Of a stretch of DNA of 64,000 nt, positions 15,360 to 48,345 are shown in pieces. Origin of the DNA: Pirellulaceae bacterium (GTDB lineage Bacteria > Planctomycetota > Planctomycetia > Pirellulales > Pirellulaceae); contig OZ244208.1 of the NCBI GenBank assembly GCA_965216885.1, forward strand, positions 730,848-794,847, written 5' to 3'. Under the pieces are notes generated by a model. It made no database searches. It was not told the DNA's origin and saw only the letters and a program-made list of their open reading frames with translations. How positions within the stretch are numbered: the first letter of the stretch is position 1; each line of letters starts with the position of its first letter. The position numbers and the translations under genes are program-made.

Positions 15360-15431
15360 GCACCCGTAGTGTAATGGATAGCACTTTGGTCTTCGGAACC
15401 AACAGTCGGGGTTCGAATCCCTGCGGGTGTA
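15360..15431 (+). tRNA. tRNA-Arg(TCG)
   Basis: Hand-folded cloverleaf: acceptor GCACCCG/CGGGTGT, D-loop AATGGATA, anticodon loop CTTCGGA, T-loop TTCGAAT. Confidence 0.75.
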
Positions 15432-27255: not shown

Positions 27256-27690
27256 TAACCGGATCACTTCGCGATTTTCTGTGAACCCAATCCGGTGCAC
27301 CACGTCCTTACCCTTACTGATGCAAATCGCATCGGCGCGGTTGGCCGGGAGCAGCCCGCGGCAAACGCAAAAGTTTTCGCCATACAAGCAGATCGAGCAC
27401 GATGTTTTCCATATTCAAACAGAAATCGAACGGCAATATCGGCGGGAATGGTAATTCGTGTCCCGGGCCGCTTCGGTTGTGACGCAAGGTTGGCAATGCG
27501 AACAGCAGCAGCCCGGTGTCACACGACATCGGGCTTTTTTCGTGGTCCGATCAAGACGAAATGCTGGAGACGAAAGGCAAACGAACTGGACTGGTAGCTG
27601 AGACGGCTTAGCACCTGGTTGAAGCCCAGGAGACGAGGATTCGAGCGCCTCCCAGTCCGCTGCGTCGCGAAAGCAATGGCGCACAAATAT

Positions 27691-27763
27691 AGGGTAGAGG
27701 TGCAGAAGGAAGCACGCCTGCTTCGGGTGCAGGAGGGTTCCGGTTCGACTCCGGGGTGCCCTA
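27691..27763 (+). tRNA. tRNA-Pro(CGG)
   Basis: Canonical cloverleaf: acceptor AGGGTAG/GTGCCCT (1 mismatch), D-stem GTGC/GCAC, anticodon arm CCTGC-TTCGGGT-GCAGG, T-arm TCCGG-TTCGACT-CCGGG. Confidence 0.8.
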
Positions 27764-27811
27764 CTTGGTGACGGTGAGCTGCGGCTCGCACATTGGAAAT
27801 GAAGCGGAAAT

Positions 27812-27883
27812 TGGTCGTCGAGAGCTGGTTGCTCATCTCTTTCTGATAAGGAGAGCGCGCTGAGTTCGATCCTCAGGGCGACC
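27812..27883 (+). tRNA. Non-canonical tRNA-like gene; anticodon loop TCTGATA (anticodon TGA on a class-I body) with a short 5-nt D-loop
   Basis: Acceptor GGTCGTC/GGCGACC pairs over 7 bp (one G-U). D-stem GAGC/GCTC, T-arm CTGAG-TTCGATC-CTCAG. Confidence 0.5.
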
Positions 27884-27974
27884 ACTGAACAACGTTGAAT
27901 GATGGAACCCGGAAATACTTGAAGGAAGAGAAATGCAAACGCAACTTCGATCCAAACGCATACCCCAATAACCA

Positions 27975-28047
27975 TGGGGGTAAAGCTTTTTGGCGAAGCA
28001 GCCGGCTTTTAACCGGCAGAGCAGAGTTCGATTCTCTGTGCCCCTAC
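27975..28047 (+). tRNA. tRNA-Lys(TTT)-like with a poorly paired acceptor stem (possible pseudo-tRNA)
   Basis: Perfect anticodon arm GCCGG-CTTTTAA-CCGGC, T-arm CAGAG-TTCGATT-CTCTG; the acceptor has only 4 of 7 pairs. Confidence 0.45.
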
Positions 28048-28091
28048 TCGGTGGTGACCGAAGGAATTCGGCCATCACGCGGTAGTCGGGA

Positions 28092-28163
28092 CCTGGTGGG
28101 TCAAGCGCGTCTTATAAGCGAGCGGCGGTGGGTTCGATTCCCGCGACTACCACTCGTCAGGGC
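28092..28163 (+). tRNA. tRNA-like gene with a degenerate anticodon arm; identity unclear
   Basis: Acceptor GGTAGTC/GACTACC is perfect and the T-arm is GTGGG-TTCGATT-CCCGC. The anticodon region GCGTCTTATAAGCGAG has only weak pairing. Confidence 0.4.
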
Positions 28164-28195
28164 GAGCAGCGGAAGCATAAGTATTAGTGACAAAC

Positions 28196-28268
28196 GGGAT
28201 CAAGGTGTTAGCGGCAGCATACGTGGCTCTTAACCACGGAGGTGAGGGTTCAAGTCCCTCTGATCCCA
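28196..28268 (+). tRNA. tRNA-Lys(CTT)
   Basis: Acceptor GGGATCA/TGATCCC is perfect, anticodon arm CGTGG-CTCTTAA-CCACG, T-arm GAGGG-TTCAAGT-CCCTC. Confidence 0.8.
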
Positions 28269-28276
28269 CTGAAAAC

Positions 28277-28347
28277 GCACTGTTCGTCTAACGGAAAGAT
28301 GCCTCCTTCGTAACGAGGCGATGCGAGTTCGATTCTCGCACGGTGCC
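28277..28347 (+). tRNA. tRNA-Thr(CGT)-like with a 3-bp D-stem
   Basis: Acceptor GCACTGT/ACGGTGC (one G-U), anticodon loop TTCGTAA, T-arm GCGAG-TTCGATT-CTCGC. Confidence 0.5.
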
Positions 28348-28394
28348 CTGACGCGGAACTGGAACGGACGTGTTCCTTTGACGTTTCGCACAAT

Positions 28395-28465
28395 GTGCCT
28401 GCGGTCCAGTGGCGAGATACCTGGTTTCCACCCAGGGGATGCGAGTTCGATTCTCGCCAGGCACT
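28395..28465 (+). tRNA. tRNA-Gly(TCC)
   Basis: Acceptor GTGCCTG/CAGGCAC is perfect, anticodon arm CCTGG-TTTCCAC-CCAGG, T-arm GCGAG-TTCGATT-CTCGC; the D-stem is weak. Confidence 0.65.
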
Positions 28466-28480
28466 CTGACAATTTAAAAA

Positions 28481-28551
28481 GCGCCCATGGTGTAGTGGTA
28501 ACCCATCTGCTTGCCATGCAGAAGACGCGAGTTCAATTCTCGCTGGGCGCT
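28481..28551 (+). tRNA. tRNA-Gly(GCC)
   Basis: Acceptor GCGCCCA/TGGGCGC is perfect, anticodon arm TCTGC-TTGCCAT-GCAGA, T-arm CGCGA-GTTCAAT-TCTCG. Confidence 0.8.
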
Positions 28552-28552
28552 C

Positions 28553-28626
28553 TGCGGGATGGAGCAGTTGGCAGCTCGCAAGGCTCATAACCTTGAGGTC
28601 GATGGTTCGAGTCCATCTCCCGCTAT
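28553..28626 (+). tRNA. tRNA-Met(CAT), possibly initiator-like (mismatched 1:72 pair); body close to E. coli tRNA-fMet
   Basis: The sequence TGCGGGATGGAGCAGTTGGCAGCTCGCAAGGCTCATAACCTTGAGGTCGATGGTTCGAGTCCATCTCCCGCTA resembles the E. coli initiator tRNA. It lies 2 nt after the previous tRNA. Confidence 0.7.
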
Positions 28627-28633
28627 TTTGAAT

Positions 28634-28718
28634 ACCGGTGGGCTGACGTTGGTGTCAGGGGGTGGCTGTTAACCACCTGTGAGGAAACTCTACGCAGGTT
28701 CGATTCCTGCTGCCGGTG
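28634..28718 (+). tRNA. Non-canonical tRNA-like gene: anticodon GTT (Asn) on a class-II body with a long variable arm
   Basis: Acceptor ACCGGTG/TGCCGGT pairs over 7 bp with 2 G-U. D-stem CTGA/TCAG, anticodon arm GGTGG-CTGTTAA-CCACC, a 16-nt variable arm containing the GAG-GAAA-CTC hairpin, T-arm GCAGG-TTCGATT-CCTGC. Confidence 0.5.
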
Positions 28719-28760
28719 CTTGATTGGTATTCGTGTGCGGTGAAAGTTCCACGCGATGTT

Positions 28761-28851
28761 GGAAGGGCAAACCAATTGGCGATGGTGGCCGTCTCGAAAA
28801 CGGGTGAGCGATAATGATATCGCCTTGAGGGTTCGACTCCCTCTCCTTCCG
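28761..28851 (+). tRNA. tRNA-Ser(CGA)
   Basis: Acceptor GGAAGGG/TCCTTCC, anticodon loop CTCGAAA, a long variable-arm hairpin GCGATA-ATGA-TATCGC, T-arm GAGGG-TTCGACT-CCCTC; length 91 nt. Confidence 0.75.
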
Positions 28852-29099
28852 CTGTCGAGCTGGTGCCGATTCAAGGCGACCTCGCAACAGAAGTTTTGTT
28901 GTTTTACATGAACCCGAATCTGCGGAACGCGTCTTTAATGGCGGCAACCGAGACCGCTTAACCGAAGTAAACGAGAACGATGAATAATTTACGATCCAAC
29001 ACCGAACAATCGAGGAGCATAAACGCGATGTGTTATCGCGATTTGCTCGCTGAATATGTAATGCGGTTGTGATGTCAGGCTGACCATTGTGTCCACGAT

Positions 29100-29125
29100 A
29101 GCCCGGCATTGCCGGGCTTTTTTTG
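29100..29125 (+). terminator. Strong rho-independent terminator inside the tRNA array
   Basis: AGCCCGGC-ATT-GCCGGGCT followed by TTTTTTT. Confidence 0.75.
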
Positions 29126-29160
29126 TGCCTTCACCGAGCGGAAAGGTGAGCAAAACCAAC

Positions 29161-29233
29161 GTCCATGGAGTGTGCTGGATTCGCACGCGACCCTGCGAAG
29201 GTCGAGGATCAGGTTCGATTCCTGGCTTGGACG
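29161..29233 (+). tRNA. tRNA-Arg(GCG)
   Basis: Acceptor GTCCATG/CTTGGAC (one mismatch), D-stem GTGT/GCAC, anticodon arm CGACC-CTGCGAA-GGTCG is perfect, T-arm TCAGG-TTCGATT-CCTGG. Confidence 0.65.
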
Positions 29234-29268
29234 CTCAGCGAACGAATGGACGACAACCAGGGAACTCT

Positions 29269-29339
29269 GGCCTGCGAGTGTGATGGAAGCACGACTGACT
29301 TCGAATCAGTTAGACGAGGTTCGACTCCTCGGTGGGCTA
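29269..29339 (+). tRNA. tRNA-Arg(TCG), second copy; D-arm resembles the copy at 15360
   Basis: Acceptor GGCCTGC/GTGGGCT (3 G-U), anticodon arm ACTGA-CTTCGAA-TCAGT is perfect, T-arm CGAGG-TTCGACT-CCTCG. Confidence 0.6.
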
Positions 29340-29357
29340 CTGAAAATTGAGACGATG

Positions 29358-29430
29358 GCACGGTACGCCAATGGCGGAGCGGCTTGCTTCAAACACAAGT
29401 GATTGTGGGTTCGAATCCCTCCCGTGCTAC
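29358..29430 (+). tRNA. tRNA-Leu(CAA)-like with a short (5-nt) variable arm; non-canonical for a Leu tRNA
   Basis: Acceptor GGCACGG/CCGTGCT, anticodon loop TTCAAAC, T-arm GTGGG-TTCGAAT-CCCTC. Confidence 0.5.
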
Positions 29431-29484
29431 TGAAACACCGAGTTACCAACAACAGAGACTCCAACACCATCGAAAGGGGAAACA

Positions 29485-29727
29485 ATGAACGGCAACAACC
29501 AATTCTCCGTGCAACTTGCCAACGGTCGCGAGCAGACATTCGAAAGTGCTGAACAGATGGTGGAGTGGATGGAGCGGCAACGTAGCCCTCGACTATCGGC
29601 CAATCGCAATCGAAACGCATCTCGTCGTGGTCGTCGATCGGCGGAGAAAGCCAACCCGCGGAAGCCTGTTAGCTCCGGCGAACCACCTTTGGCACGGTAC
29701 GCGAACCGGAATAGCGGCGAAGTTTAA
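29485..29727 (+). CDS. Small basic hypothetical ORF (80 aa) embedded in the tRNA array; its 3' end overlaps the next tRNA
   Basis: A strong SD (AAAGGGG) lies 8 nt upstream of the ATG. The N-terminal 35 aa look protein-like; the C-terminal part is Arg-rich and overlaps the tRNA at 29691. Confidence 0.3.
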   Translation: MNGNNQFSVQLANGREQTFESAEQMVEWMERQRSPRLSANRNRNASRRGRRSAEKANPRKPVSSGEPPLARYANRNSGEV

Positions 29728-29764
29728 GCCTTCGTGTTTGCGGGTTCGACTCCCGCCCGTGCTA
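29691..29764 (+). tRNA. tRNA-Leu(TAA)-like with a short variable arm; shares its acceptor stem with the gene at 29358
   Basis: Acceptor GGCACGG/CCGTGCT, anticodon arm CGAAG-TTTAAGC-CTTCG is perfect, T-arm GCGGG-TTCGACT-CCCGC. Confidence 0.55.
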
Positions 29765-29811
29765 CTGACGTGGAGTCGCGAGCGTGGGTAAGTGACATGA
29801 AGTGAGGCAAC

Positions 29812-29894
29812 GAGTCGGTCGGGCAATTGGTCGTCCAGCCTGTCTGTAAAACAGGTGCCTTCGGGCGTTGGGGGTTCGATTCCCTCTCGGCTCA
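29812..29894 (+). tRNA. tRNA-Tyr(GTA), class II
   Basis: Acceptor GAGTCGG/TCGGCTC, anticodon arm CCTGT-CTGTAAA-ACAGG, long variable-arm hairpin GCC-TTCG-GGC, T-arm GGGGG-TTCGATT-CCCTC. Confidence 0.7.
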
Positions 29895-29915
29895 CTTTGC
29901 AAAGGAGTGAAGCAC

Positions 29916-29990
29916 GGCGCGGTAGTTTCTGTTGGTAGAAATCTCAGGCTTTCAACCTGAAGTTCGCGGGTTCGATTCCCGTTCGCGTCA
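29916..29990 (+). tRNA. tRNA-Glu(TTC)
   Basis: Acceptor GGCGCGG/TCGCGTC, anticodon arm TCAGG-CTTTCAA-CCTGA is perfect, T-arm GCGGG-TTCGATT-CCCGT. Confidence 0.7.
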
Positions 29991-30066
29991 CTAAGGAGGC
30001 TAGAAGCCAGAAATGAGAGGTCAGTACCACGCGGTCTGTGGTACCTCGCTTCTCGTCTCCCTTTCC

Positions 30067-30134
30067 TGCAAGCCAGTTGGCACTGAACTGACTTTCATAC
30101 GGTCGGTCGCCCGGTTCGATTCCGGGGCTTGCAA
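30067..30134 (+). tRNA. Degenerate short (68-nt) tRNA-like gene, CAT-anticodon-like; probable pseudo-tRNA
   Basis: Perfect acceptor TGCAAGC/GCTTGCA, T-arm CCCGG-TTCGATT-CCGGG; the D and anticodon arms are weak. Confidence 0.4.
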
Positions 30135-30232
30135 CTTGCGGGTCGAGCCAGCTGCTCCGCGAGGCTTCATGAGCCTCGTTGTCCGGGTGCAACTCCCGGA
30201 CCCGCCACCAACAATTATCAAGGTGCGGAAAC

Positions 30233-30311
30233 GGTCGAGTACGCAAACAGGCAAAGCGGCCAGATCGAGAGTCTGGTGACTTTGTGGGTTCGACTCCCAC
30301 TTCGACCACCA
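30233..30311 (+). tRNA. tRNA-Leu(GAG)-like with a short 7-nt variable arm and a genomically encoded 3' CCA
   Basis: Acceptor GGTCGAG/TTCGACC followed by A then CCA, anticodon arm CCAGA-TCGAGAG-TCTGG, T-arm GTGGG-TTCGACT-CCCAC. Confidence 0.5.
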
Positions 30312-30316
30312 AGAAT

Positions 30317-30389
30317 GATCCCGTGGTCCAATGGCGAAGACGCCTGCGTGACAGGCAGGAGAGTGATGGTTCGATTCCATCCGGGGTTA
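30317..30389 (+). tRNA. tRNA-Val(GAC)
   Basis: Canonical numbering fits exactly: acceptor GATCCCG/CGGGGTT, anticodon arm CCTGC-GTGACAG-GCAGG, T-arm GATGG-TTCGATT-CCATC. Confidence 0.75.
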
Positions 30390-30455
30390 CTGTTTTGAGG
30401 TGTATTAACCGAGGCAAACGTCGCGCTCGAGGAGCGCGACGTTTGCACCAACTAC

Positions 30456-30528
30456 GGGCCGACATGTTCCATGGGGGCGACTGACTCTTGCAAAGTCGGT
30501 GTGATGAGTTCGATTCTCATTCGGTCCA
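30456..30528 (+). tRNA. tRNA-Ala(TGC)-like with a degenerate D-arm
   Basis: Acceptor GGGCCGA/TCGGTCC, anticodon arm TGACT-CTTGCAA-AGTCG, T-arm ATGAG-TTCGATT-CTCAT. Confidence 0.55.
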
Positions 30529-30566
30529 CTCGCGTCGTACAGCAGTACACCGGCGAAGTAACATAC

Positions 30567-30653
30567 GGAAGGTAGCCAGATACTGGTTCGCTGGGACTGC
30601 CTGCTAAGCAGTTGGCGTTAACGCGTCTGAGGGTTCAATTCCCTTGCCTTCCG
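30567..30653 (+). tRNA. tRNA-Ser(GCT), class II
   Basis: Acceptor GGAAGGT/GCCTTCC, anticodon arm ACTGC-CTGCTAA-GCAGT, variable-arm hairpin GCGTTAACGC, T-arm GAGGG-TTCAATT-CCCTT; length 87 nt. Confidence 0.75.
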
Positions 30654-30668
30654 CTTGAAGAGGAACGA

Positions 30669-30740
30669 GGGCTCGATAGTGAAGTGGACATCACACCTTT
30701 CTTCTAAAAAGGGATGCCGGGTTCGAATCCTGGTCGGGCT
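30669..30740 (+). tRNA. tRNA-Arg(TCT)
   Basis: Acceptor GGCTCGA/TCGGGCT, D-stem GTGA/TCAC, anticodon arm CCTTT-CTTCTAA-AAAGG is perfect, T-arm CCGGG-TTCGAAT-CCTGG. Confidence 0.75.
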
Positions 30741-30762
30741 GCTGAAGACATGAAAGATATCA

Positions 30763-30833
30763 AGACGCTGGAGCCAGATGGCAAGGCGGCTGCCTGCAAA
30801 GCAGTTGAAGTGGGTTCGATTCCCACCGGCGTC
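30763..30833 (+). tRNA. tRNA-Cys(GCA)
   Basis: Acceptor GACGCTG/CGGCGTC, anticodon arm GCTGC-CTGCAAA-GCAGT, T-arm GTGGG-TTCGATT-CCCAC. Confidence 0.7.
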
Positions 30834-30934
30834 TCTTTTAGGCAAGTTTGAAATCGCTGGGCCAGCGGCGCACTTCGCTCTCTATGAGTTGCGGGGTGTG
30901 TTCCGAACATGGGTTTTGATCAAGGCGATTTCGA

Positions 30935-31006
30935 GCGTGGTTAGCTCAGAGGTAGAGCACCAGACATTTAATCTGGCAGTCACAGGTTCGACTCCTGTAC
31001 CACTCC
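30935..31006 (+). tRNA. tRNA-Lys(TTT)-like with an unusual C32/A33 anticodon loop (CATTTAA)
   Basis: Acceptor GCGTGGT/ACCACTC (one mismatch), D-arm GCTCAGAGGTAGAGC, anticodon arm CCAGA-CATTTAA-TCTGG, T-arm ACAGG-TTCGACT-CCTGT. Confidence 0.55.
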
Positions 31007-31450
31007 GCAGATTGCACTCTGCTCCGAGAGGTGTGTTTTGGAACACAACCACGATGAAAGCCTGAAGATGGTGGGCGTTTTTCGGTCGGCCAACATTTAA
31101 ACCAACGCATTTCACGCGGTCGGCTACGGTCGAGGACGACGAAATCGCAGCGGTTGAAATGGGGGCAACATTGGCAACCGCCTTGCAGTGAATGGATACC
31201 GTGAACTGACGTCCGCTGCCGGACACCGGGACGCTCGATCACCGAAGTGGAAACTGGTCCACGGACGTGATGGAGCGGAAGCCGTGCGAAGCAGCGAGCA
31301 AACGCTTACTTAAATTCGCTCCGCGATTTGTCGTGTGAACGACGAACGTACCGCCGTCGGAAGGTTTTGAATTGAGACACTTTGTATTACTGGTTTGAGT
31401 TTTTGTGCTCTTCGATTGAAGTGAAGGGCAGTCGTGAAGGAGGAAGAGGC

Positions 31451-32551
31451 ATGTTTCAGCGTATCAAGATCCGTAGCTTTGAGGCAGGATTGCACTTCAG
31501 TGACGGCGAGTTCAAGGGCGTTCTGGGCCAGGGAAGTCACTGGCAGTTCAACCCGCTGCAGAAGCACCGCGTTGATGTCGTGTCGCAGCGTGACCCGTGG
31601 CTGGTTCACGGTTGTCTCGACATGATGATCCAGTCGGGTTTGCTGGGCGAGCGGGCGACGGTTGTTGACCTGAAGGATCACGAGCGAGCGCTAGTTTGGG
31701 TCGACGGACGTTTCAACCGCATTTTGCCGCCGGGACAGTACGCCTACTGGAACGGATTTCGTGATGTGCGAGTTGAAGTGGTCGACGCGCGCGAAGTTCG
31801 CTTTGAGCATCCGGAGCTGAAGTTGATCGCGGGATCGCCGAATGCACAAATGCTCTTGGACGTTTGCATGGTCAACCGTAACAACGCCGGTGTCCTGTTT
31901 GTTGACGGCAAGTTCATCGATACGCTTTCGCCGGGTCAGTACGCATTTTGGAAGGGTGCGTCGGACTCGCGACTGGTCGAAGTCGACCTGCGTGAGACGA
32001 TCGTTGACGTCAGCGGTCAGGAAATCATGACGGCCGACAAGGTGACGCTGCGCATGAACGCGGTCGTTACGTACCGCATCGCTGACCCGTTGAAGTGCGT
32101 CACGCAGACGGATGACGTGCGACAGGCGCTCTATCGGGAAACGCAGTTGGTGGTTCGCGAGATCGTGGGTGCCCGTGAGTTGGACGCGTTCCTGACGGAG
32201 AAGGATGTCGTCGCGACGGAAATCGCGCAGGCAGTCAGCGAACGAGCTGCAGACCTCGGTTTGCACCTGGCGTCGGTCGGTATTCGGGACGTGATCCTGC
32301 CGGGTGAAATGAAGGATCTGATGAACAAGGTCACGGAAGCGCGGAAGGCGGCCGAGGCAAACCTGATCGCACGTCGCGAGGAAACGGCGGCGATGCGCAG
32401 CCAGGCAAACACGGCGAAGGTATTGGCGGACAACCCGACGTTGATGCGTCTGCGAGAGCTGGAGGTTCTGGAGAGCATCGCGGCGACGGGTAAGTTGAAC
32501 GTTGTACTCGGCGAAAAGGGATTGGCCGACCGTGTGACGAACCTGTTGTAA
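31451..32551 (+). CDS. SPFH/Band-7 (stomatin/flotillin-like) domain protein with a duplicated N-terminal about 55-aa motif
   Basis: RBS GAAGGAGGAAG upstream. An SPFH core (TADKVTLRMNAVVTYRI...) is followed by a C-terminal coiled coil. I chose the Met at 31451 (MFQRIKI). Confidence 0.65.
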   Translation: MFQRIKIRSFEAGLHFSDGEFKGVLGQGSHWQFNPLQKHRVDVVSQRDPWLVHGCLDMMIQSGLLGERATVVDLKDHERALVWVDGRFNRILPPGQYAYWNGFRDVRVEVVDAREVRFEHPELKLIAGSPNAQMLLDVCMVNRNNAGVLFVDGKFIDTLSPGQYAFWKGASDSRLVEVDLRETIVDVSGQEIMTADKVTLRMNAVVTYRIADPLKCVTQTDDVRQALYRETQLVVREIVGARELDAFLTEKDVVATEIAQAVSERAADLGLHLASVGIRDVILPGEMKDLMNKVTEARKAAEANLIARREETAAMRSQANTAKVLADNPTLMRLRELEVLESIAATGKLNVVLGEKGLADRVTNLL

Positions 32552-32577
32552 TCCTGCCCCGTGCCGATCAACAAAAA

Positions 32578-32617
32578 AGCCCCGCTCGAATCTCTTCGGG
32601 CGGGGCTTTGATTTTTC
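32578..32617. terminator. Bidirectional intrinsic terminator between the convergent SPFH and HDOD-GGDEF genes
   Basis: AAAAAAGCCCCGC-loop-GCGGGGCTTTGATTTTT. Confidence 0.65.
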
Positions 32618-32625
32618 GGTGATCT

Positions 32626-34143
32626 CTAGGAAGTGAGGGCTTCTTCAGCGTCTGCGAAGACGACGCAGTTGCGGCCTTTTCGTTTGGCTTCGTACAAGGC
32701 CTTGTCCGCGAACTCAATGAGTTCACGGCTGTTGGTGTCGGGGAATCGCTGGGAAGCCGCCAACCCGAAACTGGCCGTGACGTTTACGTCGCCGTCGTCC
32801 GTTGGGACCGCATGCTTCTCAATGGATTGGCGGAAACGGTCGGCAATGTCGAAAACGTGGTCAACCTTAGCGTTGTGAAGGATGACGCAGAATTCTTCTC
32901 CGCCGTAGCGGGCGAGAAAGTCGGTGCCGCGAACGCATGCCGCCAGTACCTGCCCGACCTCGCGGAGGACCGCGTCACCAACAGCGTGGCCATAGGTGTC
33001 GTTGAACTTCTTGAAGTGATCGACGTCGATCATCATGACCGCATACGGCAACGCGGTCTTACTCTTGCGGGAACTGTCCAGCTGATCGAGTTCCAGCTCC
33101 AGCGCGTGCCGGTTCGGGATTCCGGTGAGTGCGTCGGTGGTCGAAACTTCCTCGAGACGTTTGTTCTCATGCTGAAGTTCGTCGGCTTCGGTTCTTGCTT
33201 CCGACAGGTCGGTCGCCATTCCAAGGCTGAGCATAACCAGTTGTTGCCGGGCCTGTTCCAGAATGGAAGCACAATCGAGCCCGTTGTCGAGCGGACTGTT
33301 GAATGATTCGAGGGCTTCTTCAATTGCCATTTGGCTGGAGATCACCAAACGCTCCATGGCACTGGCGGAAACGCCCAGCAATTCGACCGAAAGGCGATGC
33401 AGGTCCTGCATGACCTGCGCTTTGTCCTTGCTGAACACCAATTCGGCGGCGAGGTCGGCAAGATGTACGATTGCGGCCATCTCGTCGGCGTCCGTCTTTC
33501 GATCGGCACTGGCCTTGGGTTTCTCCCAGCTTCCGACGACTTCGGATATGACACCAGGCAGCTCCCATTTTTCCAACAGGATTCGTCCGGCAACGTGATG
33601 ATCGGTCGACAACAGGTCGCGCTCCTGCTGGGGCGACGGCAACGCCCCGCCGGCAGCCTTGATCACGTCGACATATTCATCGGGGATGATGGTGCTAAGC
33701 AACAATTGACCGATACGCGAGATCAAGCCGCACAGGAAGACCTGCTCGTTCTGTTCGAAACCAACCAGTCGGGCAATGCCTCGCGCGAACACGGCGGTCG
33801 CGATGGAGTGTTGCCAGAGTAGCGGATCTGATTTGCCCGACGCGTCCTGCCACCCGGGGAACTTCTCCTTGATGGAGAAGCCAAGGGCCACGATCAGGAT
33901 TCGTCGAGTTCCCAGATTCGTGAGCGCTTCCTTGAGTGTGGTGATTGTCCGCCCACGAGAGAACGTGCTGGAATTCACCAACTTCAGGATTTTGGCCGCG
34001 AGTGCCGGGTCCATGGAAATGATATCGCTGGCAAGCTGCATGCCGGCGTCGGGGTTCCTCGAGAACTCAAGGATCTCGAGGACGACGTGAGGTGGATTGG
34101 GTAGCGAATCCACGTTTTTTAGTTGTTCGTTTATGTCGGGCAT
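32626..34143 (-). CDS. HDOD-domain plus GGDEF diguanylate cyclase
   Basis: The N-terminal HDOD signature runs from LPNPPHVVLEIL through KILKLVNSSTF. The C-terminal GGDEF domain has an RYGGEEF active site. I chose the Met at 34143 (MPDINEQL). Confidence 0.75.
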   Translation of the reverse strand: MPDINEQLKNVDSLPNPPHVVLEILEFSRNPDAGMQLASDIISMDPALAAKILKLVNSSTFSRGRTITTLKEALTNLGTRRILIVALGFSIKEKFPGWQDASGKSDPLLWQHSIATAVFARGIARLVGFEQNEQVFLCGLISRIGQLLLSTIIPDEYVDVIKAAGGALPSPQQERDLLSTDHHVAGRILLEKWELPGVISEVVGSWEKPKASADRKTDADEMAAIVHLADLAAELVFSKDKAQVMQDLHRLSVELLGVSASAMERLVISSQMAIEEALESFNSPLDNGLDCASILEQARQQLVMLSLGMATDLSEARTEADELQHENKRLEEVSTTDALTGIPNRHALELELDQLDSSRKSKTALPYAVMMIDVDHFKKFNDTYGHAVGDAVLREVGQVLAACVRGTDFLARYGGEEFCVILHNAKVDHVFDIADRFRQSIEKHAVPTDDGDVNVTASFGLAASQRFPDTNSRELIEFADKALYEAKRKGRNCVVFADAEEALTS

Positions 34144-34390
34144 TTTTCTGTCGGCTCGAATAAATCTTATGCAACGCACATCACCATTACATAGGTTTCG
34201 AGGGGACGAATGCCTACTCAGAGGGGTGACAAAATGTGTCAAGTTTGATTGCGCCCACGCGTCTGTGGAGATTGAATCGGCTCGACGGATTGGTCGGTGT
34301 ACCGCCAATTCAGACGGGAGATGTGGCTATTGAATGGCTGAAGGTTCCATAGGAAGATAGCCTAGGAAAAAGCCTTGTGAAGAAAAATCG

Positions 34391-35017
34391 TCAGTTTCTC
34401 GCTGCCCTGGAAAGCACGTCGGATTCATATTCCGACAGTAGCGCATCAAGATTGCTTTCGATTTCGGTGAGGCTGGTTTCCTGGCGAACCTTCTGGTCCT
34501 GCACGATCGATTCGACCTGCCGTAATTCCGATCTCCACTTTTGAAGTTCGGCGTCGAGCTTGAGGTTGTCGTCGCGAACTCTTGAGGCCAGTTCCGTGGC
34601 CTTGGTGGCAGCTTCACCAAAACGTCCGTTTTCTTCCTTGAGCTGCGTCAGGCTGGCTCGGAGAGAAGCGTTCTCCTGTTCGGAGGCTTCCAGTTTGGTT
34701 CCCAGTTCGATCATGGCGTCGAGCGTACCGGGCGCGGCATCCGTCATACCGCCGGCCATTTGCGGGTAGGCAATTTGCCCATCCGGCGTGGTGGCGGTGG
34801 GCATGCCCTGCACGACATAAGGTTGTTGGACCATCGGCTGACCGTTTGGCATCACTTGCATTCCGCCGGCATAGGCGACGCCGGGCGCTGCGGCCACGGT
34901 TTGCGGTGGACAGATATGATTCTTGAAGTGCGGCGGCAATGCAGCGCAGCCGCCGATCAGCACAAGGCCCGTGACGGCCAGCAGCGTGACGATCGGTTTT
35001 GAACAGTTCCGAATCAT
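34391..35017 (-). CDS. Coiled-coil lipoprotein, hypothetical
   Basis: Lipobox LIGGC followed by a heptad-rich C-terminus. Confidence 0.45.
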   Translation of the reverse strand: MIRNCSKPIVTLLAVTGLVLIGGCAALPPHFKNHICPPQTVAAAPGVAYAGGMQVMPNGQPMVQQPYVVQGMPTATTPDGQIAYPQMAGGMTDAAPGTLDAMIELGTKLEASEQENASLRASLTQLKEENGRFGEAATKATELASRVRDDNLKLDAELQKWRSELRQVESIVQDQKVRQETSLTEIESNLDALLSEYESDVLSRAARN

Positions 35018-35077
35018 GATTTCATCCCGAAATTCGCGCTTCCCTCAGATAGCGGTTCCGTGGTTTTGAGGTCTGAA

Positions 35078-35287
35078 TTACGGATTGCTGTATTCGCAAT
35101 CGATCGTAATCTGATGTCCGCATTTGCAGGTAATGTGTATGGCGCTAATTGCCTTTCCCTGTCGCTCCAGTCGAATCTGAGCTGTGCCATCCGTCTTGAT
35201 GTCGGGGATGTGTACGGTCACCGATTTCGTGTCGTCGCGCACAATCGCACTACTCAGAATCGAAGACTGTGAGTTACGTGATTCCAT
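35078..35287 (-). CDS. Small hypothetical protein (70 aa) downstream of the fliA-coupled ORF
   Basis: Its ATG lies 1 nt after the stop of the preceding small gene; the start is chosen at MESRNSQ. No confident homology. Confidence 0.35.
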   Translation of the reverse strand: MESRNSQSSILSSAIVRDDTKSVTVHIPDIKTDGTAQIRLERQGKAISAIHITCKCGHQITIDCEYSNP

Positions 35288-35288
35288 C

Positions 35289-35474
35289 TCATGCCTCAAT
35301 GTCAATATTTTCGCCGACGCCATTCTGCTTCGTTTCGGCCTTGGGATTATTCTTGTCGGCCGATTTGTTTTGTTTTTTGTTTTTCGCTTTGTCATCCGGC
35401 AGCTTGCGCTTGTTGGGTTGACCAAAGCGTCCCGCAACGTTGCCGACGGAGTTGGAGGGTGTGATTTCAGACAT
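35289..35474 (-). CDS. 61-aa Lys-rich disordered protein translationally coupled to fliA (TAATG overlap); candidate FliA partner or anti-sigma-like factor
   Basis: Its start codon overlaps the fliA stop by 1 nt. It has no detectable FlgM motif. Confidence 0.4.
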   Translation of the reverse strand: MSEITPSNSVGNVAGRFGQPNKRKLPDDKAKNKKQNKSADKNNPKAETKQNGVGENIDIEA

Positions 35475-36190
35475 TATCCACCTCGTGCTTTCACTGCTTC
35501 TCCAAGTCGAAATTCAGCTTTTGCAAGCACGCGTGAAATTCGCGACTCGGAAAGTCCAAGGACCTTGCCTATTTCTCTCAGGCGCAGGTCTTCCAGATGA
35601 TAGAGAGTGAGTACGATTCGTTCCTGTTCCGGTAGTTCTTCGATGCAGTCCGCGACGATCGAACGCGTTTCCTCGTCCTGGATCGCAATATCGGGACTGT
35701 CTTCGCGGGATTGACTGAGGTCATGGTAGTCCGACGCCGGGTCCAGTTCGTCGGGCCGAGCCAGTCGCATGGCTTCCAGTGTTTTTTCCACGTCGGACAC
35801 GGACAATCCCGTGTGCGCGGCAATGTTTTCCGGGGTCGCCGGCGGATCGAGTTGTCGGGTGGCTTTCCTGACAATCGTGACCTGACGGAGCATCTGACGG
35901 GACAGTGGCGAACTGCGCCGAAGCTCGTCCAGAATCGCGCCGCGGACACGAGGGTAGGCGAATGTCTGAAACGAGTTTTCTCGTCCCATGTCAAATCGGT
36001 GCGTGGCTTCGACAAGGCCCAACATGCCGGCGGATTCGAGGTTTTCGATGTCGACATTGGGAGGCAGTTTGCCCACCGTCCTTCGCACGACGTGTCGCAC
36101 GAACTGCACGTTCTCCAGAATTAGCTGTTCGCGATCGGCACGATCGGAGACTTCCTGATATGCCTGCGATGCTCGCGAGCCCTGCATCAT
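35474..36190 (-). CDS. fliA: Sigma-70-family flagellar sigma factor (sigma-28 FliA-like)
   Basis: Region 2 (FQTFAYPRVRGAILDELRR), region 3 and a region-4 helix-turn-helix (LTLYHLEDLRLREIGKVLGLSESRISRV). It lies in the flagellar locus. Confidence 0.8.
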   Translation of the reverse strand: MMQGSRASQAYQEVSDRADREQLILENVQFVRHVVRRTVGKLPPNVDIENLESAGMLGLVEATHRFDMGRENSFQTFAYPRVRGAILDELRRSSPLSRQMLRQVTIVRKATRQLDPPATPENIAAHTGLSVSDVEKTLEAMRLARPDELDPASDYHDLSQSREDSPDIAIQDEETRSIVADCIEELPEQERIVLTLYHLEDLRLREIGKVLGLSESRISRVLAKAEFRLGEAVKARGG

Positions 36191-36192
36191 GA

Positions 36193-36411
36193 CTATGCCT
36201 TTGAGCCAGGGTTGCTACGGTTGGGTGAAAGTACAGTTAGTGTGCGAACGGAGAACATCACAACGATGCCCGTAACGGTTGCTGCGACGGCGACCCGTTG
36301 CAGGACGATCAGTGGTTCGATGCCTCGGACGACGCCAATCAGCGTCACGAAGGCGCCCATCAGTGTGGCTGCAAGGACTCCCCACGGTCTTGGTTCACTG
36401 GCGGTCTGCAT
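36193..36411 (-). CDS. 72-aa two-TM membrane protein between flhA and fliA, hypothetical
   Basis: Hydrophobic; occupies the position where flhF/flhG sit in other flagellar loci. Confidence 0.4.
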   Translation of the reverse strand: MQTASEPRPWGVLAATLMGAFVTLIGVVRGIEPLIVLQRVAVAATVTGIVVMFSVRTLTVLSPNRSNPGSKA

Positions 36412-36412
36412 A

Positions 36413-38551: not shown

Positions 38552-38565
38552 GGCAACCGGCCTTT

Positions 38566-39417
38566 CTAGTCTTCGATTGAATTAATCTGATAAGCGTGTC
38601 GGTTTCCAATCTTCCCAGGCCAACCGACATATTTGTCGATGCCACCAACGGTTGCCGCCAGCGGTTTGTTGATAGGTTGCTCCAACACCAGCACGTCACC
38701 CGGTTTCAAATCAGCCAACGCGGACATCTTGAGTGTGCGTTTCCCCAGCAGCACGACGACGTCCACTGGCAATTCCGTCACCAGCCGTTCGACATCGGCC
38801 GAAGTTCCCTGTTCGGAAGCATTCGCCTGGGATGACCGCATTGCGATCGCATCCATCGACGCGGCGGTCGTAACCCATTCGACCAGACCCTCGCGGAAAG
38901 GAGCCTTCAGGGCGAACTTGGCAACCACCAACTCGCATTCATCCGGAACGTCCATGATCAGGTCTTTCCAGATTCCCGCTTCACCCGTGCTGATATCGGC
39001 GCCAGCCAGCGGAGGCTGCGTTTCGTGCATGGATGTAACGAAGTCTTCGATCAGTTTTCGTTGGACGGCGGCTTCGATGTCCGATAACGCACGCTCTTCG
39101 GTTTCGGCAGCCGGGTCCGCGCCCACGAGGCTGCTGACAAGGTTCAGGCCCACCGACTGTGGAACCATCATCATGCCATGCGATTCATCGGGTCCTGTCG
39201 AAACGCGATAGCCGCTGCCGGCACCTTCGTACCGGGCTGCCAATTCTTTGCCGAGGCAGAAGTCAAAGCCAGCCTGTTCGATTTCGAATTCGAATCCGAA
39301 GTGTGGCGCCCAGCGTTCGTTCGTGGAACGCACGATGCGCGCATGCCAGTCGCCGATCGCCGTTTCGACGAATTCGGGCAGTCGGCCAGGTTTTCGGAAA
39401 TCGAACGCCTCCATCAT
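38566..39417 (-). CDS. fliM: Flagellar motor switch protein FliM
   Basis: The N-terminus FDFRKPGRLPEF fits the CheY-P binding/FliM signature, and the C-terminus is a SpoA (FliN-like) domain, GDVLVLEQPINKPLAATVGG. Confidence 0.8.
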   Translation of the reverse strand: MMEAFDFRKPGRLPEFVETAIGDWHARIVRSTNERWAPHFGFEFEIEQAGFDFCLGKELAARYEGAGSGYRVSTGPDESHGMMMVPQSVGLNLVSSLVGADPAAETEERALSDIEAAVQRKLIEDFVTSMHETQPPLAGADISTGEAGIWKDLIMDVPDECELVVAKFALKAPFREGLVEWVTTAASMDAIAMRSSQANASEQGTSADVERLVTELPVDVVVLLGKRTLKMSALADLKPGDVLVLEQPINKPLAATVGGIDKYVGWPGKIGNRHAYQINSIED

Positions 39418-39908
39418 TGAATCTGAAACTCCTCGAACAGAATGTCCTGCACTTCTTCGATGCCGTCCGGTGCAATGATCTGATTGAACTTGTTCTGGAT
39501 GTCACGGCGCAACGCATTTTGTCCGGCGGCACCACGAATGTCGGCCATCTGCTTGTCCGAGATGTAGCTGATCAACCAGCTGCGCAGTACGGAGTGTTGC
39601 TTGGTGATCGTTTCGACGAGTTCGGTCTCTTTCTCACCAGAGATCTGCAACGTGATCTTCAGGCGGAGATAGCGAGCCAGTTCGCCTTCATCAAGGTTGG
39701 CGACGATTTCGCCAAACTCGTGGAATGCCGGCGGTATGGCCTCGACGACCTCCTCGGTGTCTCCGTTGATCATAGCTGGCACGTAGGCAGCGATTGCAAA
39801 ACCGGCGGCGCCCGAGATCAAACCGACGATTGCAGGAACGGCGATTGCGAGCATCAGCCCGGAATTCTTTTTGGGTGCTTCGTCCTCTTTTGCTTCTTCG
39901 TCAGCCAT
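39414..39908 (-). CDS. fliL: Flagellar basal-body-associated protein FliL
   Basis: Single N-terminal TM plus the FliL domain (YLRLKITLQIS through NALRRDIQNKFNQI). It overlaps fliM by 4 nt. Confidence 0.8.
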   Translation of the reverse strand: MADEEAKEDEAPKKNSGLMLAIAVPAIVGLISGAAGFAIAAYVPAMINGDTEEVVEAIPPAFHEFGEIVANLDEGELARYLRLKITLQISGEKETELVETITKQHSVLRSWLISYISDKQMADIRGAAGQNALRRDIQNKFNQIIAPDGIEEVQDILFEEFQIQ

Positions 39909-39941
39909 CAGCTTCTCCTTCTCCTTCCGAAGTGAAACGAA

Positions 39942-41224: not shown

Positions 41225-41227
41225 TTA

Positions 41228-44080: not shown

Positions 44081-44102
44081 TGTTCGTTCCTGTCAGGCTC
44101 CC

Positions 44103-45635: not shown

Positions 45636-45645
45636 CGATTACCCC

Positions 45646-45984: not shown

Positions 45985-45986
45985 GA

Positions 45987-46418: not shown

Positions 46419-46429
46419 GGTACGTTCGC

Positions 46430-48238: not shown

Positions 48239-48345
48239 GAAGCGTGGTTCCGGGAATCGGCTTCAGCGGAGTTGCTGGCCGGTTCCATGCTGAAATTCGT
48301 GGTTTAATGAAGTTGTGCGGGCAGCGTCGGTTGCTGTCACCCGAT

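What the first reader, a model, noticed from the sequence alone, without database searches (positions are those of the whole stretch)
29358..29764. Pair of Leu-anticodon tRNA-like genes with identical acceptor stems and short variable arms, with a small ORF between them
The genes at 29358-29430 (anticodon CAA) and 29691-29764 (anticodon TAA) share the acceptor stem GGCACGG/CCGTGCT and the discriminator A. Both have 5-nt variable loops, whereas bacterial tRNA-Leu is class II. This suggests a local duplication followed by anticodon divergence. LeuRS identity normally relies on the long arm, so these may be mischarged, uncharged, or recognised by a different aaRS. The 260-nt spacer between them carries the SD-led ORF at 29485 (see the next finding).
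Basis: seen in the sequence. Interest (0 to 1): 0.55.

Follow-up and report, generated by a model that had tools for sequence, protein, structure and literature searches.

The report
Short-armed leucine tRNAs in tRNA array
The two genes are real leucine-anticodon tRNAs that lack the usual long extra arm, but they belong to a large, conserved family found in mobile tRNA gene arrays of Planctomycetes, cyanobacteria and phages, so they are an ordinary member of a known though little-discussed kind.

Summary
Both tRNA genes exist: t1 at 29357-29429 (CAA) and t2 at 29691-29764 (UAA). They have 5-nt variable loops, A73 and identical acceptor stems. They sit in a 27-tRNA array (27588-31006) on a bacterial chromosome that looks planctomycete. 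A third Leu tRNA in the array (GAG, 30233-30308) is also short-armed, whereas Ser and Tyr keep their long arms.

A pattern scan found homologous arrays in more than 120 genomes, almost all Planctomycetota, and on phage contigs. In these arrays, Leu-UAA, UAG, CAA and GAG genes are nearly always 73-79 nt. An alignment of 136 distinct sequences is 96.9% paired, and 18 of 20 pairs show compensatory changes. The short genes keep the bacterial leucine signature (A73, A14, A15:U48, N13·A22), which other isotypes in the same arrays almost never show. The same architecture occurs in Mycobacterium phage Mangeria and in the Nostoc PCC 7120 trn operon, where 23 of 26 tRNAs are charged in vivo.

The pair is not a recent duplication. 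Body identity is 66%, and each gene has 90-92% relatives in other genomes. The shared acceptor stem recurs across the family.

t2 looks sound. t1 has two stem mismatches and a weak cloverleaf. The intervening ORF is lineage-specific and ends on t2's anticodon.

Verdict: new member of a known kind.

The parts
27588..31006 (+). Long tRNA gene array (L-array): 27 tRNA genes in 3.4 kb, all on the + strand
   Evidence: ARAGORN and Rfam. The gene order matches arrays in more than 120 mostly planctomycete genomes and on phage contigs.
29357..29429 (+). t1: type I (short variable loop) tRNA-Leu, anticodon CAA, A73, no encoded CCA. It has two stem mismatches (C31.A39, U50.U64).
   Evidence: Its body is closest to Leu-UAG genes of other arrays. 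The cloverleaf scores -16.9 against an MFE of -24.8 kcal/mol.
29430..29690 (.). 261-nt spacer that is specific to this lineage
   Evidence: Found only in the window and in L001, where it has an 8-nt insertion. Related arrays have 7-72 nt here. No tRNA remnant is detectable.
29485..29727 (+). 80-codon ORF that overlaps t2 by 37 nt; its stop codon is t2's anticodon TAA. Probably not a real gene.
   Evidence: There is no Pfam match and no homologue in the 145 other loci held at that point. It differs from L001 by 2 non-synonymous and 2 synonymous changes.
29691..29764 (+). t2: type I tRNA-Leu, anticodon UAA, A73, no stem mismatches
   Evidence: The cloverleaf scores -26.8 against an MFE of -28.7 kcal/mol.
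30233..30308 (+). Third short-armed Leu tRNA (anticodon GAG, 7-nt variable loop, C33) with the same D-arm design. CCA is encoded at 30309-30311.
   Evidence: The CCA reads CTA in L001.
29100..29125 (+). Terminator-like hairpin plus T-run, in the 308-nt gap just upstream of the sub-array that holds t1 and t2
   Evidence: This is a consensus match only.
15360..15431 (+). Stand-alone tRNA-Arg(UCG) outside the array. It duplicates the array's Arg(UCG) at 29269-29339.
   Evidence: It scores 63.3 bits against 47.8 bits for the array copy. This fits the view that the array is supernumerary.

Best explanation
t1 and t2 are two paralogous members of a conserved family of type I tRNA-Leu genes, meaning Leu tRNAs with a short variable loop. 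This family is carried by long, horizontally mobile tRNA gene arrays ('L-arrays', called 'degenerate tRNA gene clusters' in Planctomycetes) and by phage tRNA clusters.

Likely mechanism (inferred). The tRNAs are transcribed with the rest of the right-hand sub-array. RNase P and 3' nucleases cut them out, and the CCA-adding enzyme adds CCA. The host LeuRS then charges them, using A73 and the D/T-loop core rather than the variable arm or the anticodon. They would read UUG (t1) and UUA/UUG (t2) as supernumerary, probably conditionally expressed, isoacceptors alongside the host's ordinary class II Leu tRNAs.

Shown here: the genes exist; the cloverleaf is conserved with covariation; the leucine signature is present; selection is purifying; and the family is widely distributed.

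Inferred, not shown: transcription, charging with leucine, and use in translation. t2 is the stronger candidate for a working tRNA. t1 may be impaired.
For: - **Real tRNA genes.** ARAGORN and Rfam both call them.
- **A whole family.** The window's array has three short Leu genes, while its Ser and Tyr keep long arms. Across 145 loci there are 294 Leu genes with variable regions of 7 nt or less. In the same loci, 200 of 201 Ser and 52 of 55 Tyr genes stay long.
- **Covariation.** In an alignment of 136 distinct sequences, 96.9% of cells are paired. 18 of 20 pairs change on both sides. There are 549 compensatory cells against 132 in shuffles (0 of 500 shuffles reach that), and the slid-register controls reach only 33-49% paired.
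- **Leucine signature.** The combination A73 + A14A15 + U48 + non-Watson-Crick N13.A22 + D arm of 16 nt or more is present in 68% of short Leu and 87% of long Leu genes. It is present in 0-8% of every other isotype in the same arrays. All three window Leu genes have it.
- **Purifying selection.** Between the window and L001 (98.9% identical), 0 of 21 substitutions fall in 1302 nt of tRNA and 21 fall in 1071 nt of spacer (Fisher p=5e-8).
- **Distribution.** There are more than 120 hits in genome contigs, almost all Planctomycetota and including isolates of Stieleria, Rubripirellula, Rhodopirellula and Gemmata. On phage contig L010 the array lies next to tape-measure and tail-fibre genes. Mycobacterium phage Mangeria has annotated tRNA-Leu genes of 74-75 nt with the same D loop, AAACUGGCAAA. 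All four Leu genes of the Nostoc PCC 7120 trn operon are short.
- **Experimental precedent.** 23 of the 26 tRNAs of that Nostoc operon are aminoacylated in vivo and are found on polysomes (PMC8421152). A type I tRNA-Leu(CAA) is leucylated in S. coelicolor (PMC6614811). E. coli LeuRS identity does not need the long arm (PMC9976931).
- **Supernumerary status.** In Planctomycetes only tRNA-Ile(UAU) is exclusive to these clusters (PMC4807772 supplement). The window also has a second, better-scoring Arg(UCG) gene outside the array.
Against: - There is no expression or charging data for this organism or for any planctomycete array.
- E. coli LeuRS failed to charge the Streptomyces type I tRNA-Leu, so charging depends on the host enzyme, which I could not examine.
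- t1 has two stem mismatches, and its cloverleaf is 8 kcal/mol worse than its MFE fold.
- Array tRNAs score lower on general tRNA models than housekeeping ones, and Kim et al. called them 'partially degraded' and possibly dispensable.
- The purifying-selection test is significant only for the 17 tRNAs taken together. For t1 plus t2 alone (147 nt) about 2.9 substitutions would be expected and none is seen; my own estimate puts this at p of about 0.06.
- Sequence similarity over positions 8-26 does not place t1 or t2 next to class II Leu genes. The resemblance to Leu lies in architecture and signature, not in overall sequence.
- For the Nostoc operon, I could not tell from the text held which three genes are the pseudogenes.
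Confidence: 0.7

Rival explanations
1. The genes are decaying relics. The array is a horizontally acquired, dispensable 'degenerate tRNA gene cluster', the short-armed Leu genes are partially degraded, and they are not charged or used. This could apply to both genes or to t1 alone.
For: Kim et al. 2016 describe planctomycete clusters as degraded, fast-evolving and with low Cove scores. Array tRNAs here score 38-66 bits, against 63 bits for the stand-alone Arg. t1 has C31.A39 and U50.U64 mismatches and a weak cloverleaf. The array differs between near-identical strains: L001 lacks the left 10 tRNAs. E. coli LeuRS cannot charge a natural type I tRNA-Leu.
Against: Decay does not produce 549 compensatory cells or 96.9% pairing across 136 sequences. 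It does not keep a Leu-specific signature. It does not keep all 17 tRNAs identical while the spacers collect 21 substitutions. The short arm is a stable family trait across phyla and phages, not a random lesion. In Nostoc, 23 of 26 array tRNAs are charged in vivo.
Confidence: 0.2
2. t1 and t2 arose from a recent local tandem duplication, and one copy then changed its anticodon.
For: The genes are adjacent and have an identical 7-bp acceptor stem, discriminator and 3' trailer (ACUGA).
Against: Body identity is only 66%, and the D loops, anticodon stems and T stems all differ. Each gene has much closer relatives in other genomes, at 90-92%. Related arrays already carry separate Leu-CAA and Leu-UAA genes at these positions. 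The shared acceptor stem is a recurrent stem of the whole family: it occurs in 18 other genes, and other arrays also share it between isoacceptors, for example L039, L078 and L093. t1 looks like a gene of the UAG lineage that has acquired a CAA-type anticodon loop.
Confidence: 0.03
3. The tRNAs are charged by a synthetase other than LeuRS, or are mischarged. UUR codons would then be read as another amino acid, giving recoding or deliberate mistranslation.
For: A class I shape with A73 is shared with several isotypes. The anticodons share A35 and A36 with tRNA-Phe. In Nostoc, two array tRNAs (Phe and Ile) migrated aberrantly on acid gels.
Against: From the established identity rules (PMC9976931, plus general knowledge), synthetases for class I tRNAs with A73 need anticodon bases that are absent here: G34 for Phe, C35 for Arg, C36 for Val, and CAU or GAU for Met and Ile. 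AlaRS needs G3:U70, and these genes have C3:G70. The Leu-specific core signature is present. No mistranslation was found in Nostoc.
Confidence: 0.05
4. The short arm is selected for, not merely tolerated. Armless Leu tRNAs in mobile arrays would act as back-up or anti-defence tRNAs that escape toxins or nucleases which recognise class II tRNAs through the long variable arm.
For: tRNA arrays are discussed as putative anti-defence systems (PMC12803027). The arm is lost in exactly the one class II isotype whose bacterial synthetase does not need it, while Ser and Tyr keep theirs. The trait recurs in phage, plasmid and chromosomal arrays of three phyla. Paper-search snippets mention enzymes that act preferentially on long-armed tRNAs, MenT3 on tRNA-Ser and SLFN11 on type II tRNAs. 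I read only the abstracts of those papers.
Against: Neutral loss gives the same pattern, because LeuRS does not require the arm and phage genomes are under pressure to stay small. Leu-CAG usually keeps its long arm in the same arrays. No toxin that targets tRNA-Leu through the arm is known in these hosts, and none was looked for here.
Confidence: 0.12

Closest known systems
Type I tRNA-Leu(CAA) of Streptomyces coelicolor (Fan et al. 2019, NAR, PMC6614811)
   Same: It is a bacterial tRNA-Leu with a 5-nt variable loop that coexists with class II Leu tRNAs, has a CAA anticodon, and shares U8-A14 as an identity element.
   Different: It is a single essential chromosomal housekeeping gene, not part of a mobile array. 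Its charging has been shown by experiment, and it depends on the leucine-specific domain of the Streptomyces LeuRS. I did not have its sequence, so I could not test homology to the array family.
L-arrays, i.e. long horizontally transferred tRNA operons such as the trn operon of Anabaena/Nostoc PCC 7120 (Santamaria-Gomez et al. 2021, PMC8421152; Tran et al. 2015, PMC4758250)
   Same: These are dense, same-strand arrays of 20-43 supernumerary tRNA genes. The Nostoc operon's four Leu genes are also short-armed and have a Leu-type D arm.
   Different: The Nostoc array is on a plasmid next to an HNH endonuclease and is induced by translational stress. Regulation and expression of the planctomycete array are unknown. 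The papers I read do not discuss the short arm of the Leu genes.
Planctomycete 'degenerate tRNA gene clusters' (Kim et al. 2016, PLoS One, PMC4807772)
   Same: This is the same object: clusters of low-scoring tRNA genes in Rhodopirellula and relatives, which include the characteristic tRNA-Ile(UAU), present here at 28081-28153.
   Different: They were described as partially degraded and possibly dispensable. Here the Leu genes show strong covariation and purifying selection, which argues that they are maintained, not decaying.
Phage tRNA clusters, e.g. Mycobacterium phage Mangeria (Bixzunavirus, NC_054718)
   Same: It has three adjacent tRNA-Leu genes (cag, gag, caa) of 74-75 nt, with U8A9, a 3-bp D stem, the D loop AAACUGGCAAA, the variable loop UGUUU and A73.
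   Different: It is on a lytic phage genome of an actinobacterial host, and its acceptor and anticodon stems are different.
Animal mitochondrial tRNA-Leu
   Same: It has a short variable loop, and A73 and A14 serve as identity elements.
   Different: It is organellar, has a relaxed D/T-loop structure and has its own dedicated LeuRS. The array tRNAs keep the canonical G18G19/U55C56 elbow.

Membership tests
Bacterial tRNA-Leu (substrate of LeuRS) | Anticodon NAG or YAA in a 7-nt loop closed by a 5-bp stem | tested here: met
   CAA and UAA are called by ARAGORN and Infernal. All five anticodon-stem pairs show compensatory changes in the family.
Bacterial tRNA-Leu (substrate of LeuRS) | Discriminator A73 | tested here: met
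   Both genes have A73. It is present in 250 of 267 unique short Leu genes and is invariant in alignment A1.
Bacterial tRNA-Leu (substrate of LeuRS) | Tertiary core used by E. coli LeuRS: A14, the A15-U48 Levitt pair, G18G19 with U55C56, and U54-A58 (PMC6614811 introduction; PMC9976931) | tested here: met
   t1 and t2 have U8, A14, A15, GG in the D loop, U48 and a UUCGA T loop. The combined signature is found in 68% of short and 87% of long Leu genes, and in 8% or less of any other isotype.
Bacterial tRNA-Leu (substrate of LeuRS) | Long variable arm (class II shape) | tested here: not met
   The variable loops are 5 nt. By the literature this is a structural hallmark but not an identity determinant in E. 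coli, so failing it does not exclude charging by LeuRS.
Bacterial tRNA-Leu (substrate of LeuRS) | Aminoacylation with leucine | not testable with these tools
   This needs in vitro charging or charged-tRNA sequencing.
Type I tRNA-Leu coexisting with type II (Streptomyces case) | Variable loop of about 5 nt with no stem | tested here: met
   The loops are UGAUU and UGUUU. In the family, 5 nt is the commonest length, followed by 6 and 7.
Type I tRNA-Leu coexisting with type II (Streptomyces case) | A LeuRS able to charge both types, through a permissive leucine-specific domain | not tested
   The host's leuS is not in the window, and I did not retrieve it.
L-array / tRNA array unit | At least 20 tRNA genes at 2 or more per kb, in the same orientation (Tran et al. 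2015, abstract) | tested here: met
   There are 27 genes in 3419 nt (7.9 per kb), all on the + strand.
L-array / tRNA array unit | Supernumerary and horizontally mobile | tested here: inconclusive
   In favour: a duplicate Arg(UCG) lies outside the array; the array's left half differs between strains that are 98.9% identical; syntenic arrays occur on a tailed-phage contig; and the literature says so. However, the rest of this genome, and so its housekeeping Leu genes, could not be read.
Recent tandem duplicate pair | The two copies are each other's closest relatives | tested here: not met
   Body identity between t1 and t2 is 66%, against 90-92% to genes in other genomes.

The most novel reading that the evidence does not exclude
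Loss of the long variable arm from tRNA-Leu may be a selected, defining trait of horizontally mobile tRNA arrays and phage tRNA sets across at least three phyla (Planctomycetota, Cyanobacteria, Actinobacteria phages). On this reading, the arrays supply a parallel set of leucine tRNAs that the host LeuRS still charges but that cannot be recognised by toxins, defence nucleases or other factors that identify class II tRNAs by their arm. The window's t1 would add a live example of anticodon remoulding within such an array, with a UAG-type body retargeted to CAA.
Probability: 0.12. Interest if true: 0.7.

Novelty: new member of a known kind. Interest (0 to 1): 0.3.

Why it matters
Textbooks and a recent identity review state that tRNA-Leu carries a long variable arm everywhere except in animal mitochondria. 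The only studied bacterial exception is one Streptomyces gene.

This window shows that short-armed Leu tRNAs are in fact common. They are the rule in the long tRNA arrays of Planctomycetota, and they also occur in a cyanobacterial array and in mycobacteriophages. They are under purifying selection and keep their leucine signature.

This matters in three ways:
- **Annotation.** These genes should not be dismissed as pseudogenes because of their length or their low scores on tRNA models.
- **Enzymology.** It raises the question of which bacterial LeuRS enzymes accept armless substrates.
- **Biology of mobile arrays.** It bears on the debate over what these arrays are for: back-up translation under stress, support for foreign genes rich in rare codons (UUA is 1% of Leu codons here), or anti-defence.

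For this particular window nothing extraordinary is needed to explain the pair.

Tried and rejected
- **Close relatives in cultured phages.** Megablast of the array against INPHARED found only an 80-82% match to one tRNA-Ser.
- **Exact-protein look-up of the SPFH neighbour.** Nothing was found, probably because I used the wrong start codon. FlhA worked instead.
- **Thermodynamic folding.** The MFE structures of t1 and t2 are not cloverleaves, and the z-scores are only -1.1 and -1.4. I did not count this against the tRNA reading. It does show that t1 is weak.
- **Metagenome scan for t1-type genes** (UAG-type body with a CAA loop). There were no hits, so the anticodon switch appears confined to this lineage.
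- **blastn of t2 against PLSDB plasmids.** No match. I fetched the Nostoc plasmid by accession instead.
- **Nearest-neighbour test on positions 8-26 against all other array tRNAs.** The neighbours are a mixture of isotypes at 70-80% identity, and class II Leu genes reach only 68%. Plain sequence similarity therefore does not classify these genes, so I used a position-specific signature instead.
- **The ORF.** There is no Pfam family, no homologue in the 145 other loci, and no tRNA remnant in the spacer.
- **Sigma-70 promoter scan of the array.** None was found. This is not informative for a planctomycete.
- **Literature.** Searches for type I tRNA-Leu in phages or arrays returned only the Streptomyces paper and a descriptive cyanobacterial survey that lists Leu variable loops of 5-18 nt.
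- **Recent-duplication model.** I considered it and rejected it.
Full report
**1. The observation.**

ARAGORN finds 28 tRNA genes in the window. Of these, 27 form one same-strand array at 27588-31006. The two genes in question are called by ARAGORN and by the Rfam tRNA model:
- t1: 29357-29429, 73 nt, anticodon CAA, 47.1 bits.
- t2: 29691-29764, 74 nt, anticodon UAA, 49.6 bits.

Everything else it described is in the sequence. Both genes have the acceptor stem GGCACGG/CCGUGCU with G1.U72, A73, and 5-nt variable loops (UGAUU and UGUUU). CCA is not encoded.

Infernal flags three poor pairs in t1 (C13.A22, C31.A39, U50.U64) and none in t2.

The spacer is 261 nt. The ORF at 29485 does not end in the spacer. 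It runs to 29727, which is 37 nt into t2, and its stop codon is t2's own anticodon TAA.

**2. Context.**

The window is a bacterial chromosome, not a phage. It carries a flagellar gene cluster (FlhA, FlhB, FlgK, FlgI), PTS enzyme I, FabF and FabA, HDOD-GGDEF and histidine-kinase genes, and large Kelch, WD40 and GSDH-CBM6-cytochrome c proteins. Its GC content is 54-61%. I infer a planctomycete origin from this gene content and from the relatives of the array; I did not prove it.

The array holds a third Leu gene (GAG, 30233-30308). It also has a short variable region of 7 nt and the same D-arm design: U8 A9, a CGC/GCG stem, a 10-11-nt loop, and G26. In contrast, Tyr (84 nt) and both Ser genes (88 and 91 nt) keep long arms.

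A stand-alone tRNA-Arg(UCG) at 15360-15431 scores 63.3 bits, against 47.8 bits for the array's Arg(UCG).

A metagenome contig (L001) is 98.9% identical to window 28608-48565. It has the same 17 right-hand tRNAs but diverges completely to the left of 28608, where it carries an ECF sigma factor and a Ser/Thr kinase instead of the ten left-hand tRNAs.

**3. The pair belongs to a large family.**

I built a pattern from the shared D arm, a Leu anticodon and the T arm. It found 22 IMG/VR contigs. Almost all were from Planctomycetota: Pirellulales, Planctomycetales, Gemmatales, Isosphaerales and Kuenenia. They include isolates of Stieleria, Rubripirellula, Rhodopirellula, Aporhodopirellula and Gemmata.

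Nearly every hit is a 20-43-gene array with a recognisably conserved order: Phe Glu Pro Ile Lys Ile Lys Thr Gly Pro Asn Ser Gly Gln Gln Ser Val Leu Leu Asp Leu Tyr Glu Leu Met Leu Val Thr Ala Ser Arg ... Cys.

Two IMG/VR contigs (L006, L010) carry syntenic arrays. In L010 the array lies directly after tape-measure and tail-fibre genes, so the same array family travels on tailed phages or prophages.

Over all loci:

| Gene class | Variable region |
|---|---|
| Leu | 294 genes at 7 nt or less; 41 at 8-11 nt; 69 at 12 nt or more |
| Leu-UAA, UAG, CAA, GAG | almost always short |
| Leu-CAG | mostly long |
| Ser | 200 of 201 long |
| Tyr | 52 of 55 long |

.

One caveat applies. The pattern came from this window, so the planctomycete bias of the hits is partly built in.

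Independent examples show that the trait is wider:
- Mycobacterium phage Mangeria has three adjacent annotated tRNA-Leu genes of 74-75 nt, with the D loop AAACUGGCAAA and the variable loop UGUUU.
- In the Nostoc PCC 7120 plasmid trn operon, all four Leu genes are short.

**4. Are they maintained tRNAs?**

An alignment of 136 distinct short Leu sequences (A1) has U8, A14, G18, G53, U54, A58, C61 and A73 invariant, and U48 nearly so.

On the cloverleaf with a short variable loop:
- 96.9% of cells are standard pairs.
- 18 of 20 pairs show changes on both sides.
- There are 549 compensatory cells, against a shuffled mean of 132 (0 of 500 shuffles reach the observed value).
- Sliding the 3' partners by 1-3 columns drops pairing to 33-49%.

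Between the window and L001, all 21 substitutions in 28634-31006 fall in the 1071 nt of spacer or trailer. None falls in the 1302 nt of tRNA (Fisher p=5e-8). This is strong for the array as a whole. For t1 plus t2 alone it is only suggestive: about 2.9 substitutions would be expected and none is seen (my estimate, p about 0.06).

**5. Leucine identity.**

The literature gives the E. coli determinants as A73, A14, the A15-U48 pair, G18G19 with U55C56, and U54-A58. The anticodon and the long arm are not required, and variants lacking the arm remain active (PMC6614811 introduction; PMC9976931).

t1 and t2 have all of these determinants. I defined a combined signature: A73 + A14A15 + U48 + a non-Watson-Crick N13.A22 + a D arm of 16 nt or more. 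Its frequency in the arrays is:
- 87% of long Leu genes;
- 68% of short Leu genes;
- 0-2% of most other isotypes, with Val highest at 8%.

All three window Leu genes carry it (component frequencies).

The discriminators of the other array isotypes also follow the bacterial rules: Cys U, His C, Ser G, Gly U, Thr U, Trp G.

A plain nearest-neighbour comparison of positions 8-26 did not group t1 or t2 with class II Leu genes. The Leu character therefore lies in specific positions and in architecture, not in overall similarity.

By elimination, the other synthetases that accept class I tRNAs with A73 need anticodon bases that are absent here, and AlaRS needs G3:U70, whereas these genes have C3:G70. 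This step rests on established identity rules.

**6. Not a recent duplication.**

t1 and t2 are 73% identical overall, and 66% outside the acceptor stem and anticodon loop.

t1's body is 90-92% identical to Leu-UAG genes of other planctomycete arrays, and its best Leu-CAA match is 79%. It shares the 16-nt D arm CGCCAAnGGCnGAGCG, the anticodon stem CUUGy/ACAAG, and the T arm GUGGG-UUCGAAU-CCCuC. t2's body is 91% identical to Leu-UAA and Leu-CAA genes elsewhere.

The closest arrays by gene order (L067, L111, L128, L139) already have distinct Leu-CAA and Leu-UAA genes in the run Arg-GCG, Arg-UCG, Leu-CAA, Leu-UAA, Tyr.

The acceptor stem GGCACGG/CCGUGCU appears 20 times in the set, the window's two genes included. 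The other 18 are CAA, GAG or UAA genes in about 14 other genomes, and some arrays also share it between isoacceptors.

So the shared stem is a family trait, from common descent, constraint or concerted evolution. t1 is best read as a gene of the UAG lineage whose anticodon loop has become the CAA type (UUCAAAC). No other example of that combination was found in the JGI metagenome collection.

**7. Quality of the two genes.**

t2 has no stem mismatch, and its cloverleaf (-26.8 kcal/mol) is within 2 kcal/mol of its MFE.

t1 has two mismatches. 78% of the family have at most one. Its cloverleaf (-16.9) is 8 kcal/mol worse than its MFE. The U50.U64 mismatch is shared with several orthologues (L057, L068, L102), so it is tolerated in that lineage.

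I rate t2 as probably functional and t1 as uncertain.

**8. The ORF.**

The 261-nt spacer occurs only in the window and in L001. Related arrays have 7-72 nt at this position. The 80-codon ORF has no Pfam match and no homologue in the other loci. It differs from L001 by two non-synonymous and two synonymous changes.

Its last 12 codons and its stop codon lie inside t2. RNase P cleavage at the 5' end of t2 would therefore leave a message with no stop codon (inference). It is most likely not a gene.

**9. What is known.**

- Long tRNA arrays that spread horizontally and add supernumerary genes are established. They are reported in Planctomycetes too (PMC4758250; PMC8421152).
- The planctomycete clusters were described in 2016 as 'degenerate', of HGT origin and possibly dispensable. 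tRNA-Ile(UAU) was the only anticodon exclusive to them (PMC4807772). That implies the hosts have ordinary Leu genes elsewhere.
- In Anabaena the array is induced by translational stress, and 23 of its 26 tRNAs are aminoacylated in vivo and found on polysomes. ARAGORN finds four Leu genes in that operon, all short, and only three genes are pseudogenes. At least one short Leu tRNA must therefore be charged there. This is my inference; the text held does not name the pseudogenes.
- A type I tRNA-Leu(CAA) is leucylated in S. coelicolor but not by E. coli LeuRS.
- A cyanobacterial survey lists Leu variable loops of 5-18 nt without comment.
- I found no paper that points out the short arm as a regular feature of array or phage Leu tRNAs. 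The paper library is incomplete, however.

**10. Verdict.**

It is wrong about the origin of the pair and about the role of the long arm in bacterial LeuRS recognition.

The pair is a new member of a known kind: type I bacterial tRNA-Leu within an L-array. The family-level picture is more interesting than the pair itself. It consists of a conserved, covarying, armless Leu family across mobile arrays, with Ser and Tyr keeping their arms. It is worth a dedicated survey, but it does not call for any new mechanism.

Noticed in passing
window 28634-28719 (also L004 896-981, L006 1640-1729, L007 3389-3480, L009 6986-7071, L027 1639-1728): This is a class II-shaped tRNA with the Asn anticodon GUU, discriminator G73 and a 15-22-nt variable stem-loop. 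It recurs in arrays and on viral contigs, while most array Asn genes are 73-77 nt. G73 plus a long arm is the bacterial serine identity, so it could be a Ser-charged reader of Asn codons, or an Asn tRNA that has gained an arm.
   Followed up: partly
window 30233-30311: Leu(GAG) has C33 instead of the near-universal U33 (loop UCGAGAG). About 50 unique array Leu-GAG sequences share C33. The window encodes CCA after A73, but L001 has CTA there.
   Followed up: partly
window 30067-30135: This is a 69-nt tRNA with a CAU anticodon and a shortened D arm (anticodon at position 30). It is conserved at the same place, before Leu-GAG, in many arrays, at 69-71 nt. Whether it is Met, initiator or Ile2 was not determined.
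   Followed up: no
window 28608 (inside tRNA-Met 28553-28625) versus L001 19958: Homology with the 98.9%-identical contig L001 stops abruptly inside a tRNA gene. The window's ten left-hand tRNAs are replaced in L001 by an ECF sigma factor and a Ser/Thr kinase-WD40 gene. This is either strain-level rearrangement at the array or an assembly chimera.
   Followed up: partly
window 29100-29125 and 28853-29160: A strong terminator-like hairpin (AGCCCGGCATTGCCGGGCT followed by T7) lies in a 308-nt tRNA-free gap. In related arrays, about nine tRNAs (Gly ... Leu-UAG) occupy this position. The window's array may therefore be two transcription units.
   Followed up: no
window 28081-28153: tRNA-Ile(UAU) lies in the array. 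Kim et al. 2016 single this gene out as the only anticodon found exclusively in planctomycete clusters, with high Cove scores in the three genomes they report. Here Rfam's best model for it was tRNA-Sec, at 28.4 bits.
   Followed up: no
L009, L011, L013, L015, L018, L020, L023 (viral contigs): Leu-UAA, UAG and CAA genes of 79 nt plus CCA have a 10-nt unpaired, U-rich variable region (for example UGAUUUAUUU). These look like intermediates between the long-armed and 5-nt forms.
   Followed up: no
L071 (Pirellulales MAG array): ARAGORN calls a 74-nt tRNA with a CUA anticodon (labelled Pyl), which is an amber-suppressor-type gene, inside a tRNA array.
   Followed up: no
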